Shown piece by piece: positions 11,177 to 17,004 of a stretch of 64,000 nt of DNA (within the stretch, counting starts at the first letter, position 1; each line of letters starts with the position of its first letter). The notes below the pieces were generated by a model that was not told the DNA's origin, made no database searches, and saw nothing but the letters and a program-made list of their open reading frames with translations. The position numbers and the translations under genes are program-made. The DNA comes from Eledone cirrhosa (lineage: Eukaryota), in contig OZ024741.1 in assembly GCA_964016885.1 (NCBI GenBank), positions 302,994,001 to 303,058,000 of the forward strand, written 5' to 3'.

Positions 11177-11463
11177 GTAGATGAGTGAAGAATAAAGTGG
11201 TTGGCTGTTTTACTTAAAGCATCAACACTTGTTTCATTAGTCCGGTGTGTCTAAAAATCGCTGATCGCTAGAAGCTACTCACTCGATTTTAATTACAGTC
11301 GATACCCGAACAAATCATCAGAATGTAGAGTATTCTGATGATTTGGTCGGGTATCGACTGTAATTAAAATCGAGTGAGTAGCTTCTAAGGATCAGCGATT
11401 TTTAGACACACCGGACTAATGAAACAATTGTTGAGTCAAACAACGCCGAACGTTAAAACTATC
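11177..11463. mobile_element. Fold-back mini-element with two inverted extended-stem-II hammerhead motifs
   Basis: Arms 11222-11324 / 11332-11434; CTGATGA at 11335 and GAAACAATTGTT at 11421; left end resembles the 3' end of the PLE at 16841. Confidence 0.8.
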
Positions 11464-11520
11464 CTTGATACAGAGTACTCATAACCTCTATTTGGATTAC
11501 CTTAAACGATATCTCGTTAA

Positions 11521-11747
11521 GACACACACACACACACACACACACACACACACACACACACACACACACACACACACACACACACACACACACACACACA
11601 CACACACACACACACACACACACACACACACAAACACACACACACACACACACACATACACACACACACACACATATGTATATATATATATATATATATA
11701 TATATATATATATATATATATATATGTATATATACATATATATATAT
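11521..11747. repeat. (CA)n/(TA)n microsatellite
   Basis: Directly visible. Confidence 0.95.
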
Positions 11748-11905
11748 TAGGATTGGTGCTCTGAAATAGCGAAGTATACATGTATGTATGTATAGTATAT
11801 TTGGCAATATAACGTATGTTTAATTAAAAAGATTTTCAAGACCTTGCGCTATCATTTTAAAGTAGTAACTATTTCACTTCTTTTTTCGGCAAAGAAGGGA
11901 GAGAA

Positions 11906-11946
11906 GCTGACAGATTCTGTTTCACACTGTTGGTGTTCCTCAGAGC
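11906..11946 (-). ncRNA. Minimal type I hammerhead ribozyme
   Basis: gct-CUGAGGA-acac caaca gtgt-GAAACAG aat CUGUC-agc: canonical core, GUC triplet, all three stems pair. Confidence 0.75.
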
Positions 11947-12009
11947 AACGCAATCAGTTCCTGACTATTGCTGGAATTCTATAAGAATCCAGCCTCTATA
12001 ATTTACGTT

Positions 12010-12050
12010 GTTCTGAGGAACAGCAACAGTGTGAAACAGAATCTGTCAGC
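12010..12050 (+). ncRNA. Minimal type I hammerhead ribozyme (inverted partner)
   Basis: gtt-CUGAGGA-acagcaacagtgt-GAAACAGAAUCUGUC-agc. Confidence 0.65.
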
Positions 12051-12865: not shown

Positions 12866-13265
12866 GTCAACACTGCATGTTATATAATACAAAGCCTTGA
12901 GTGTATGACATAGCGGTGATGGGTAGAGGAATAGGGATACATGATAGATAAAGATAAATGAAGATTGGGTGAAGGAAGGTGGGATAAAGGAAGAGGGAGA
13001 GGGGGAGAATACCGGGTTTTTAGTTGAGAAGTGTAGTTATGTGTTCTCTTTGCAGAGTTGTTTGGTCCGGGTTCGATCCCATTATCAACACCGCATGTTA
13101 TATAATAGAAAGCTTTTAGTGTATGACATAGCGGTAGTGGGTAGAAGATTGGGTGAAAGAAGGTGAGATTGGGGAAGAGGGAGAGGAGGAGAATACAGGG
13201 TTTTAATTGAGACGCGTAGTTAGGTGTTCTCTTCGCAGAGTCGTTTAGTCCAGGTTTGATCCCAG
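12866..13265. repeat. Diverged ~200 bp tandem duplication ending in a SINE-like B box
   Basis: tcaacac.gcatgttatataata.aaagc.tt.agtgtatgacatagcggt at ~12867 and ~13085; each unit ends in ggtt(c/t)gatccca. Confidence 0.65.
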
Positions 13266-14479
13266 CTTAAGCAAGTGTTTTCTAGCATAGTTCCGGGGCG
13301 ACCCACGATTTGTGTGTGAAATTGGTTACACTGACACTCACCGGCTGAAGTGTGTGTTTTTCTGAGTGATTGAATTAATCAGATGTCCGTTAAAACACAG
13401 GCACATGGCGGCCAGTAGGTGCTTGTGGCGAAGGCCGCGATGTTGTAAGAATTTTGACAGGGTCTCTGGGTGGAGTTTTTTTATTTCGGTAATCCATTGC
13501 ATTTTTACCTCTGAATAAGTCATAAAATAACGATGGGGTCATGAAGGAGCTGGTGTTGCTTATCTCCTCTACAGGTCTGAATTTCTTGCAGAGAAGGAGA
13601 GAGAGAGCGAGAGAGAGAGAGAGAGAGAGAGAGAGAGAGAGAGAGAGGGAGAGAGAGAGAGAGAGAGAGAGGGGGGAGGGGAATGAGAAAGAAATATAGA
13701 GGAAGAATTGACCCCAGTACTGGATTAGTTTATTTTTATCAACTTCGAAAGGATGAAAAGCAAAGTTGGCCTCGGCAGGATGTTGACTCAGAGCTCAGAG
13801 AGCCAGAACGAATACTGCAAAACATTCATTCAGGTAGATATGTTACACTACACCTTTAGTTGTGATGATAGGCTGCAATGTGAAGGATATTTAGCTGCTA
13901 TTACTAGGAGCCTTCCTTGTCGGCTATATATAAACACTAAATCGGTTGACTTAAGAACCACCATACATATGAGTACACATATACACACATATGTTACGTA
14001 CATACATATATACTTATGCATACATACAAACATATGCAGACATATTCACACATATACACTTATAGTATCTGACTATCTCTATACCACTAACTTACTTTTC
14101 CTCTTTATATATTTGTCAATCTTCTCTTCCCTTTCTTTCCTTTGATTAATCTCTTTCTTTTCTTCACTTCTTTTTTTTTCCATATCCGCCATTTTTGATT
14201 ATTGTTATTCTTAAATCGTTGATGCTTGTAAGTTAAAACTGTTAATTCTACTGGGATAAATTGACCTCCACGCTTAATTTCAGTTGTAGCTCAAACGACA
14301 AAAATTCACGCATAGACTACCTCTATAAATCTGTCATATCGTGTGTATATAAGGAATCATTGGCAGAGATTTGTCAGGTGAACCAAGTCCACGACCCGGT
14401 TTCGATTTGCTGTTGAAACTGTTTCACTTATGTCTCTAAGATTCTTGGTACAGTACAAACGTCCTAGCTTTTCAGATAG

Positions 14480-16055
14480 ATTTCTTTTATTTGCCACTAG
14501 GGCATCAAAGGTGGGACAAGTACAAAGGGGGGAGTTTACACAAAAAGGCGTCCTCAATAGGGAGGAGGCAATAACAAAATATAAAAATAAAATAAGATAT
14601 AACAAAAAATAAAATTTTTAACAAAATCCTCAATAGAGAGGAGGCGCCTTGGGGGGTCGCACACACCCCCGAAAAAAGTGTGCAACCCTTGTCCTCAGGA
14701 GCACAGAGAGGGGGTGCTCCCTCGTTCCTTCCTCTCCTCCACCTACAGGCTTATGTAAAGAGAAGGCCCATTCACACGGGCCATTCTCGCCACTTTCACC
14801 CACCTTTCATAAAAACGACTGGGGTGCAGCACCTCTCTCTCCATCCTGTTCCTTCTTCCGAAATGATATCGGAAGAAACGGACCAGTTGTTGGCCAGAGA
14901 GAAAGGTGCCTGACCTCAGTCCTTTCAGACGCGTCCACCATACAACCTCTTTCGCCATGGCTATTACGCACAGAAACACCGCCTCTGCTTCATCTTTGAA
15001 GGGGGGAGGCGGCTTGATCATTACAACCGGATCGGTCCCACCCTTGACAGCAGTTGTTCGACATAGCCCCACAGATCGGCTACGCCCGAGCAGTGTACCA
15101 ATGCGTGTGCAACGGTTTCCTCGTCGCACACGCATCTGGGACAGATCTTTTTGGCGGGGTCCCTACCCGGGCGCCCGTGTCTGTAGAGCCTTTCTCGAAC
15201 GGGTAAAGCCCCTCGGTAGCACTGCCAGGCCAGGGACTTCTGGAAGTTGTCCATAGGTCCCGGGCTGAATGTCCTACCGAACAGGCTGGCCAGTTCGTCC
15301 TCCTCCATGTCTAGGGCTTCTCCGAGGGCGTCGTCGCACCTGCTGCGTACCAGCCCTCTATAGAATGTTGCGGTGGAGTCTCCACTGACAACCGGATCCG
15401 CCTGCCAGAGGGCGGTGAGCGCCTGGGCACACTCAGTGTGCCAGGCGCCCAGTTTTCTCGGTCTTTGCTTGACCCAGGATTGCAGCTCGGTGAGTGAGAC
15501 GAGTCTGGGAAAGGTTCGTCTCACAAACGAGGCCCACACCGGTTGTCCGGTGAGGAATACGTAGAGGTGCCGTAGCCTTAATGCGTGTTTACGCATCATT
15601 AGCCACGGCATCCCCAGCCCTCCTTTCGAAGGGTGTTGACAGCAGATGGATCTCCTCACCATAGGAGCCCGCCTCTTCCAAAGGAATTGGAAGAGCGCGC
15701 GCTCCATCTTGGTGAGGGTTTCCCTTGGGCAGGGCACTACGGTCAGGCGGTAGTAGATGACGGACGCTATATAAGTGTTCGCCACCTCCGCCCGACCTTT
15801 CAGGGATAGTTTGCAACTGGCCCACTTCTGGGTCAGTGCAAACACCCTGTTCGTAACCTCCGCCCAGTTTTTCTCCACCTGGAGGTCCGGTCCGAACCAG
15901 ACCCCGAGCAACTTCACCGGGCCCTCCGTCCAGCGTCCGACGACGCCATCAGAGGGCATCGGTCTGCCCCTCCACGTGCCGAGTTGCAAACCGATCGACT
16001 TGTCCCGGTTCAGCTTAGCCCCTGTGAACTTTTCGTACTCCTCCAGTAAGGTGCC
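14480..16055 (-). mobile_element. Tx1/L1-like LINE, 5'-truncated (copy 1)
   Basis: ORF 15021-15989 is the RT C-terminus plus zf-RVT (CPRC..ETVAHALVHC), homologous to copies 2 and 3; TSD tttcagatag at 14470-14479 and 16056-16065. Confidence 0.93.
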
Positions 16056-16176
16056 TTTCAGATAGTTGGTCTTCTAGAGGAACACATTTAAAACATCCAG
16101 CGAGCCATATCTGTGAGATTCCTAGTTCGAAACGTTTCAGGGTGTTTTCGTTATTGTTTTCATACATACATCCATA

Positions 16177-16795
16177 CATGATGGCTGCTCCCTCGTTATC
16201 GAGTATGGCCATTGCATGATATACCATTATTAATAATTATTAATTAATTCTATCGTGCAATGCCTGTGCGTGAAGATATTTTTTAAAATGAGGAAAGACT
16301 GTGCACTGAGCCAATCCCACTCTCTGAGCGACAGTAGCTATAACCCGAAAAGAAGAAAAGATCAACATCATCGGTAACTACTGAGCCGCAGGTTTTATAT
16401 CAGAGTTATCCCAGTTTCCTGAGTTGTCTTCTCCTAGAAGAATGCCCTGACAAAGACTAGGGGTCTTTCACTCCCAGTGGTTTTACCGCGCGATCGGGTG
16501 TCCAGCCCAACTATTTCTATGTCCCCGCGCACATACATACACATACACCCATGTATATACACATATACATACATATGTACATGTATATATACACATTTAC
16601 ACACTTTCCGATGGCCATTGACTCATGAGTTCTTCCGCCCTTTGTCAGATTTTGTTATTTGTCCTGCAGGGTGTCCAAAATCACCCTCCTCACCAAGTAA
16701 ACTTGGTGGGGTTGCCGGTTTAGTCGCCGCCGACCCGACCATGCGACAGGTTGTACTGGGTTACATGTTACCAGTAGCACTCAAGAGTGACCCGA
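16177..16795 (-). mobile_element. Internally deleted RTE-like element (copy 1)
   Basis: Shares 5' and 3' ends with 59161-59770; ends in a (TATG)-like tail; ctaggagaag..aactc motif resembles RTE 5' UTRs. Confidence 0.6.
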
Positions 16796-16895
16796 CACAC
16801 ACACACACACACACACACACACACACATATATATATATATAGTTAAAGAAAGAAGAGTAACATGGTTGGCTGTACAATAAGGGCTTTATTCAAAG

Positions 16896-17004
16896 TGCTG
16901 ACAATTGTTTCGTTGATCTGGTGCGTCTAGAGTTCGCTAATCGCTTGACGCTGCGTCAATCGATCTCCAATACGTTGTTTACAACCAGTCAATACATCAG
17001 AGCA
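16896..17004 (-). ncRNA. Hammerhead-like motif with ~80 nt extended stem II in the PLE 3' end
   Basis: tgct-CUGAUGU-attgactggt...accagatcaac-GAAAC-aatt-GUC-agca; A9 position is atypical. Confidence 0.6.

What the first reader, a model, noticed from the sequence alone, without database searches (positions are those of the whole stretch)
11177..17004. Extended-stem-II hammerheads link a mini-element to the coding PLE in the same window
Seen: 11335-11432 and 16896-17004 both have CUGAUG, an ~80 nt insert closed by similar pairing (..gactggt/accagatc; ..ggtcgg/ccggact), and GAAACAAUUGU. They share ggtg.gtcta.a..tcgct.atcgct inside the insert and tggttggctgt near the terminus. The 16841 copy is the 3' end of a GIY-YIG-encoding PLE. 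This is the best in-window evidence that the hairpin elements derive from PLE ends. An ~80 nt stem II is unusual next to the minimal hammerheads typical of PLEs and may hold an extra RNA module.
Basis: partly seen in the sequence, partly recalled or inferred. Interest (0 to 1): 0.75.

Follow-up and report, generated by a model that had tools for sequence, protein, structure and literature searches.

The report
Long-armed hammerhead in Penelope retrotransposons
Both sites are ends of sister Penelope-type jumping genes whose hammerhead ribozyme motif has one arm stretched to about 80 bases, a fold kept by paired mutations across many subfamilies, and that arm likely serves as a grip for the element's own copying protein rather than for cutting.

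Summary
11177-11521 and 16841-17004 are homologous ends of Hydra-clade Penelope-like elements (PLEs). Each has a type I hammerhead with 79-82 nt between CUGAUG[A/U] and GAAAC, whereas published Hydra hammerheads have stems II of 3-7 bp. Across 56 genomic copies the insert folds as a basal helix, a bulge and a 49-nt upper module of nearly fixed length. That module shows 102 two-sided pair changes against about 20 in neutral simulations (0 of 500). The link needs correcting. The mini-element comes from a sister coding subfamily (M), not from the 16841 subfamily (P), and it is a one-off two-armed truncated insertion, not an amplified mini-family. P amplified with U in place of core A9 yet kept the module, so the module likely does not depend on cleavage. 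Copy 5' ends pile up just 5' of the core (replicated, p=8e-4), likely the transcript start, and not at the cut site (p=0.14). Best reading: an RNA docking domain for the RT-endonuclease (untested). Rivals are a cleavage modulator, a spacer or promoter, and a retained 47-nt intron. This scan noted the same motif earlier on other DNA of this genome; I found no paper describing it.

The parts
11177..11521 (.). Two-armed (head-to-head) truncated insertion of subfamily M, between (TA)n and (CA)n/(TA)n
11177..11325 (-). Left arm: intact M end running from 3 nt before the core to the element terminus (+157)
11220..11325 (-). Type I hammerhead of the left arm: stem I CAUU/GAUG, core CUGAUGA at 11321, U.U at the base of stem II, GAAAC 11235-11231, predicted cut after GUU at 11224
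   Evidence: 93.8 bits
11249..11296 (-). Upper module of the stem II extension (48 nt here, 49 nt in 53 of 56 aligned copies)
11329..11432 (+). Right arm: core 11335, extended stem II and GAAACAAUUGUU; the 3' strand of stem I is deleted
11433..11521 (+). Distal part of the M 'tail', joined to the right arm through a 5-nt TTGTT microhomology
16841..19067 (-). 5'-truncated Hydra-clade PLE copy of subfamily P, flanked by (TA)n
18215..19067 (-). Broken ORF remnant: linker, CxCx5C motif, GIY-YIG endonuclease with CxxC and CxH
16896..17004 (-). Type I hammerhead of P: stem I UGCU/AGCA, core CUGAUGU at 17000 (U at position 9), GAAAC 16911-16907, palindromic ACAAUUGU, predicted cut after GUC at 16900
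   Evidence: 114 bits
16925..16973 (-). Upper module of the stem II extension (49 nt; begins GUA, ends UAGAC)
17243..17427 (.). SINE-like repeat inserted later into this copy's 3' UTR; absent at that place in other P copies

Best explanation
Both sites are ends of sister subfamilies of a Hydra-clade Penelope-like retrotransposon whose hammerhead stem II carries a covarying extension of about 80 nt, and that extension likely sits at the very start of the element's RNA and likely acts as a docking and folding domain for the element's RT-endonuclease, not as a part needed for cutting. Shown: homology, fold, fixed length of the upper module, clade motifs, the U9 core of subfamily P, two fixed 3' ends and a pile-up of copy 5' ends just before the core. 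Inferred: transcription starts about 10 nt before the core; the protein binds this 5' domain and starts reverse transcription internally at two sites (+157/+162 and +331/+334); two short cDNAs primed from the two sides of a cut in (TA)n run back to the RNA start and join head to head, which gives the 11177 hairpin. Untested: protein binding, cleavage and expression.
For: Fold: 83.1% of cells paired against 77.3% shuffled (0/500) and 29-40% slid; upper module 88% paired, with 9 of 18 pairs changed on both sides. Neutral simulation along the tree from a fully paired root, matched for divergence: 102 two-sided cells observed, means 19-22, 0 of 500 in each of 4 settings. G.U cells outnumber C.A cells 197 to 56, so the fold is of the sense RNA and not a DNA cruciform. 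Upper module is 49 nt in 53 of 56 copies while the 5' bulge varies from 8 to 11 nt and the upstream UTR is full of indels. Independence from a consensus core: U at position 9 in 40 of 40 full-length P copies chosen by their terminus only; 401 exact matches to a U9 pattern, with several subfamilies visible in the 100 listed. No excess of 5' ends at the cut site (5 of 134, p=0.14). Pile-up at -20..+10: 14 of 60 in a first sample; 18 of 74 in a fresh sample, 1.68 per 100 nt against 0.42 upstream (p=8e-4) and 0.43 inside the ribozyme (p=6e-5). Precedent: PAc starts RT internally, extends both target strands, cleaves its hammerhead only with protein present, and does not need cleavage for insertion (PMC11167929). 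Penelope has an internal promoter in its pLTR (PMC2377424 passages).
Against: No binding, cleavage or RNA data; the docking role rests on elimination and analogy. In PAc the needed RNA is the first 172 nt of the ORF, not a stem II extension. Hydra elements with 12-20 nt inserts are abundant in the same genome (737 matches), so the extension is not a general need. Each compensatory change is only 1-4 events on the tree (1-6 on a tree without the paired columns). Unaided RNAalifold recovered only 6 pairs at -2.97 kcal/mol, and I named the full structure by hand. Sequence identity of the module between P and M (71-75%) is above fourfold sites (57%, n=47) but below the terminus (83-88%). The hammerhead-compatible fold is 4-6 kcal/mol above the MFE in the window copies. 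That A9U cripples cleavage is recalled, not tested. 5' ends come from BLAST and carry a few nt of error.
Confidence: 0.5

Rival explanations
1. The extension is part of the ribozyme: its bulge or apical loop makes a tertiary contact or gates dimer formation, and so tunes cleavage.
For: Stem I also covaries (columns 7-112: U-A 24, C-G 23). Stem III and the NUH site are kept (GUC in 46 of 48 P matches). U.U at the base of stem II is the usual Hydra core (File S2) and is tolerated in tested ribozymes (PMC3088659 passages). Distal contacts can offset variant cores (same paper).
Against: The module starts 9 bp or more from the core, beyond where loop I-II contacts normally form (recalled). There is no excess of copy ends at the cut site. 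The 5' bulge is variable in length and sequence.
Confidence: 0.2
2. The insert works at DNA level (internal promoter elements just downstream of the start) or is a tolerated spacer; pairing is selected only so that the core can still fold.
For: It lies 15-90 nt after the inferred start, where Penelope has promoter elements. Unrelated long inserts of about 58, 94 and 95-97 nt occur in other families of this genome and score no better on the model than short hammerheads do (26-35 against 29-36 bits).
Against: Fixed length, conserved bulges and covariation far from the core exceed what a spacer needs. Shortened P/M-type inserts in the 100 matches listed are scattered deletions of different lengths, not an amplified subfamily (judged by eye).
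Confidence: 0.15
3. The 47 nt from GUA to UAG are a short spliceosomal intron retained in genomic copies, as is usual for PLE introns; splicing would leave a hammerhead with a 9-bp stem II.
For: The module begins GUA(A/U)U and ends YAG in nearly all copies, and these border pairs never covary. D. virilis Penelope has a 75-bp intron 46 bp after its start.
Against: No spliced P-type copy (0 matches) against 401 unspliced. One match to an alternative M-type junction, explicable by microhomology. The +5 position is U, G at +1 is missing in 6 of 56 copies, and both sites are buried in the predicted helix. PLEs keep their introns, so the DNA counts are weak evidence.
Confidence: 0.1
4. The 11177 hairpin is a self-amplifying non-autonomous mini-element derived from the coding subfamily at 16841.
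For: Real homology; many short fold-back copies exist.
Against: M has its own coding copy and groups apart from P. Junctions differ in 7 of 7 fold-backs. 5' ends are spread from +110 to beyond -1380.
Confidence: 0.05

Closest known systems
Hydra-clade PLEs and their hammerheads (Craig et al. 2021, PMC8557442; passages, supplement parts 1, 2 and 52 of 59 read)
   Same: RWK, DKT, CxCx5C linker, CxxC and CxH in a C-terminal GIY-YIG, (TA)n targets, sense type I hammerhead near the 3' end, frequent CUGAUGAU...UGAA core, inverted 5'-truncated partner copy, tail at one end.
   Different: The 26 Hydra rows of File S2 have stem II of 3-7 bp and loop 2 of 3-10 nt (Hydra-1_oBim: 7 bp, 8 nt); here 79-82 nt. 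The tail is about 170 nt, not 30-40. Subfamily P has U9.
Minimal PLE hammerheads (Cervera and de la Pena 2014, PMC4209133; parts 1-2 of 4 read)
   Same: Type I, short stem I (4-6 bp), palindromic stem III predicted to need a dimer, longer than usual helix II.
   Different: Their helix II is 6-8 bp; no branched or 80-nt extension is described in the parts read.
PAc Poseidon element (Frangieh et al. 2024, PMC11167929; parts 1-2 of 4 read)
   Same: Two RT start sites that define terminus and tail; AT-rich targets; hammerhead in the pLTR.
   Different: PAc's ORF starts at stem II. Here the first in-frame ATG seen lies about 230 nt past the terminus in one long copy (L116), and the insert has stops in the frames opened by the core ATG.
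PLE-X1_sMoe hammerhead (File S2 of PMC8557442)
   Same: PLE hammerhead with a 9-bp stem II and a long (34-nt) loop 2, marked as deviating.
   Different: EN-minus plant element of another clade; shorter insert; no covariation reported in that table.
Metazoan non-LTR retrozymes (PMC7229834 passages; bioRxiv 10.64898/2026.07.22.740005 abstract and passages)
   Same: Small hammerhead-bearing PLE-related elements.
   Different: Retrozymes are tandem direct repeats of a unit that amplifies; the 11177 element is a head-to-head one-off insertion.

Membership tests
Hydra-clade PLE | RWK motif at the N-terminus and DKT in place of DKG | tested here: met
   IRWKAYH and ADKTS in long P copies L116 and L117; definition
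Hydra-clade PLE | C-terminal GIY-YIG with CxCx5C linker, CxxC and CxH beside the conserved E and N | tested here: met
   CNCHLPDKC, CGLC..E, N..CRH in the window copy and L118
Hydra-clade PLE | Insertion into (TA)n | tested here: met
   flanks
Hydra-clade PLE | Placement within the Hydra clade in an RT tree with reference elements | not testable with these tools
   no reference proteins on hand; Pfam gave no match for L118
Type I hammerhead ribozyme | Core CUGANGA, GAAA, NUH | tested here: inconclusive
   met in M (A9 in 17 of 17); not met in P (U9 in 40 of 40)
Type I hammerhead ribozyme | Three helices round the core, stem I closing | tested here: met
   not met in the right arm 11329-11432
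Type I hammerhead ribozyme | Self-cleavage | not testable with these tools
   indirect test negative: 5 of 134 copy ends at the cut site, p=0.14
Rfam hammerhead or other Rfam family | Covariance-model match | tested here: not met
   no hammerhead match at E<=10 in either stretch
Non-LTR retrozyme / amplified non-autonomous element | A fixed unit repeated in tandem or dispersed with a shared structure | tested here: not met
   7 of 7 fold-back junctions differ
Retained PLE spliceosomal intron | GT-AG borders and spliced RNA | tested here: inconclusive
   borders present but weak; 0 spliced DNA copies; no RNA tested

The most novel reading that the evidence does not exclude
A hammerhead has been turned into a scaffold. 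In this Hydra lineage the 5' end of the RNA is a dedicated, telomerase-RNA-like docking domain for a telomerase-related RT, built on stem II, and subfamilies with a crippled core keep jumping because only the scaffold matters. Genomic copy ends then map the transcript start and both priming sites directly.
Probability: 0.25. Interest if true: 0.8.

Novelty: new variant of a known kind. Interest (0 to 1): 0.52.

Why it matters
What hammerheads do in PLEs is an open question (stated in PMC8557442 and PMC11167929). Here natural variants separate the parts: U9 against A9 cores, with the same 49-nt module, and short-stem relatives in one genome. That makes 'cutting versus protein scaffold' directly testable. 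It also shows that descriptor searches with short stem II miss most such motifs: with one exact core pattern, inserts of 70-126 nt outnumber those of 8-38 nt 4010 to 737.

Tried and rejected
Rfam gave no hammerhead: none among the 150 of 279 whole-window matches listed, none in the two focused scans. A 56-nt intron with an upstream donor was rejected: that GT is absent in several subfamilies and the spliced pattern had 1 match. Coding role for the insert: stops in the frames checked. SINE in the UTR as shared ancestry of M and P: rejected, since it is absent from other P copies. Cut-site marking by copy ends: not significant. An extra G at hot-spot 5' ends, as expected from a cap, was seen by eye in only 2 non-inverted junctions (L315, L330), so I do not claim a cap. 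Sequencing runs: no RNA holder listed. Laying three contig runs of one sample gave no splice-type joint and no evidence on expression. The sliding P-versus-M comparison mis-set the core and failed for L122; it was replaced. Lunse et al. 2017 is not held, so its variants could bear on novelty and were not seen. The A9U literature search gave nothing usable. Supplements of PMC4209133 and PMC3088659 were not opened.
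Full report
Observation. Both motifs are in the sequence. The stretch 11177-11521 is a fold-back with a hammerhead-like arm on each strand. The left arm (- strand, core at 11321) is the one colinear with the PLE end at 16841-17004. Local alignment scores are 100 for the left arm and 78 for the right arm, against shuffle maxima of 50 and 55 (0 of 2000 each). The inserts alone score 52 against a maximum of 40 (0 of 5000). Both motifs are type I hammerheads: a 4-6 bp stem I, the core, stem II, GAAAC, a palindromic ACAAUUGU stem III and NUH. 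The right arm has lost the 3' strand of stem I by a deletion from just after GUU into the tail, across a TTGTT microhomology. An unrelated non-LTR fragment lies between the two elements (14580-16055).

What the elements are. The window lies in a 3.0-Gb animal genome; that it is an octopod is my guess from recall and was not tested. The 16841 copy is a 5'-truncated, broken PLE. [quoted passage not shown] These are the defining features of the Hydra clade in PMC8557442 (passages). One long copy, L116, runs pLTR, tail, ORF, UTR, pLTR, tail. The mini-element's subfamily (M) has a coding copy of its own: L122 joins the M end through a UTR of about 640 nt to an endonuclease ORF 70% identical in DNA to the window's. 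This is one clear locus; L014/L121 is an M stub beside a related element. In a 15-row protein tree L122 groups with L121 and L111 (98/96), apart from the P rows, inside a P/M clade (88/98). So M and P are sisters.

The hairpin is not an amplified unit. Among 25 M loci, the 7 hammerhead-to-hammerhead fold-backs all have different junctions, and none of the other 24 shares the window's deletion. Copies end at two fixed 3' points, +157 (M) or +162 (P) and +331/+334, counted from the core C. Of 140 copies chosen by a terminus pattern only, 62 run on past +200. The tail is thus about 170 nt, against the 30-40 bp given in PMC8557442 and PMC11167929.

How common the long stem II is. The exact pattern CTGATGA-N-GAAACAATTGT gave 737 matches for N=8-38, 282 for 39-69, 2807 for 70-95 and 1203 for 96-126, with reversed controls of 1, 0, 0 and 2. 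The long classes mix several families. The 26 Hydra rows of the published table have stems II of 3-7 bp and loops of 3-10 nt (File S2). Rfam has no match.

Structure of the insert. From 102 distinct P/M-clade hammerheads I aligned 56, chosen to spread over subfamilies. That pool was filtered for AGAC near the insert's 3' end, so the invariance of AGAC there is partly my filter. In unfiltered terminus-chosen copies AGAC is present in 23 of 27 M and 40 of 48 P matches (these sets include a few false alignments). The hand-named structure has a 9-bp basal helix, an 8-11 nt 5' bulge, and an upper module of 18 pairs with small fixed bulges and an 8-nt loop. Of all cells 83.1% pair, against 77.3% shuffled (0/500) and 29-40% slid. 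The upper module is 88% paired, with swaps such as G-C 25 / A-U 23 / U-A 5 and C-G 36 / U-A 17. These are only 1-4 events per pair on the tree, so I simulated neutral evolution along the tree from a fully paired root at matched divergence. Two-sided cells were 102 observed against means of 19-22, 0 of 500 in each of four settings; the paired fraction was reached in 0-13 of 500. G.U outnumbers C.A 197 to 56, which points to the sense RNA. The module is 49 nt in 53 of 56 copies. Against this, RNAalifold alone found 6 of the pairs, and sequence identity in the module (71-75% between P and M) is lower than in the terminus (83-88%). A more distant Hydra family with a 90-nt insert (L091, 44% amino-acid identity) scores 42-44 bits on the model, where short or unrelated hammerheads score 24-37; this is suggestive of homology only.

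Is it cutting? M has the usual Hydra core, with U.U at the base of stem II. P has U at position 9 in 40 of 40 full-length copies, and a U9 pattern has 401 exact matches. From recall, A9 pairs with G12 and its loss lowers activity; I found no paper for A9U. Copy 5' ends are not enriched at the predicted cut (5 of 134 within 2 nt, p=0.14). They do pile up at the 5' edge of stem I: 14 of 60 in a first sample and 18 of 74 in a fresh one after dropping 4 duplicated loci and 2 partner arms (p=8e-4 against upstream, 6e-5 against inside). In P several ends fall on the A of TCATATC at -13, which fits an initiator consensus (recalled). The simplest reading is a transcript start there, which puts the extended hammerhead at the RNA's 5' end.

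Mechanism. Shown: homology, fold, fixed module length, U9 amplification, two 3' ends, 5' pile-up. Inferred: the protein binds the 5' domain, primes from both sides of a cut in (TA)n at two internal RNA sites, and short cDNAs that run to the RNA start join head to head. In vitro, PAc initiates internally, extends both strands, needs protein for ribozyme cleavage and does not need cleavage to insert. The docking role is the best fit by elimination (0.5). Cleavage tuning (0.2), spacer or promoter (0.15) and a retained 47-nt intron (0.1; 0 spliced copies, but PLEs keep their introns) remain open.

Novelty. Eight paper searches found no description of such an extension in PLE hammerheads. I read parts or passages of the papers cited, none in full, and could not see Lunse et al. 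2017. Earlier notes of this scan describe the same motif and the twin-primed hairpins on other DNA of this genome. I consulted them after recording the clade, covariation and 5' cluster; the 'docking site' and 'RNA start' wordings overlap with theirs. Their claim that copy ends mark the cut was not borne out in these two subfamilies. Verdict: a real and well-supported new variant of a known kind, function untested, interest 0.52.

Noticed in passing
window 10849-10969 (hammerhead 10873-10925, - strand): Fold-back stub of another family with a short 20-nt stem II insert and a CCGAUGA core.
   Followed up: partly
window 11918-12038: Inverted pair of CUGAGGA...GAAACAGAAUCUGUC motifs with a 13-nt insert and a longer stem III, inside a larger palindrome.
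   Followed up: no
window 19858-19987: Another (TA)n-flanked palindrome with half-hammerhead motifs at its centre.
   Followed up: no
L086, L108, L163-L174: Abundant family with a 93-97 nt two-hairpin insert in stem II, often in direct pairs about 0.7-1.0 kb apart, with no Hydra ORF upstream in the loci tested: retrozyme-like.
   Followed up: partly
L143-L147, L160: Family with a 57-59 nt stem II insert of unrelated sequence.
   Followed up: partly
window 11428-11433: The right arm's deletion starts exactly at the predicted cleavage site; a 5-nt microhomology also explains it. Single event.
   Followed up: partly
upstream of the core in M (-10..-7) and P (-13..-10): A 4-nt palindrome (GATC in M, ATAT in P) lies at the 5'-end hot spot and forms the centre of several perfect fold-backs, e.g. 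L245 and L349.
   Followed up: partly
window 17463-17743 and 17950-18237: The P 3' UTR holds a degenerate tandem duplication (71%) that includes the ORF end.
   Followed up: no
window 14580-16055, 26475-29071, 54185-56816: Related non-LTR retrotransposon fragments with RVT_1 or zf-RVT matches.
   Followed up: partly
L310-L314 (G000:C18): Five loci share one M junction and flank, so they are segmental duplicates.
   Followed up: yes
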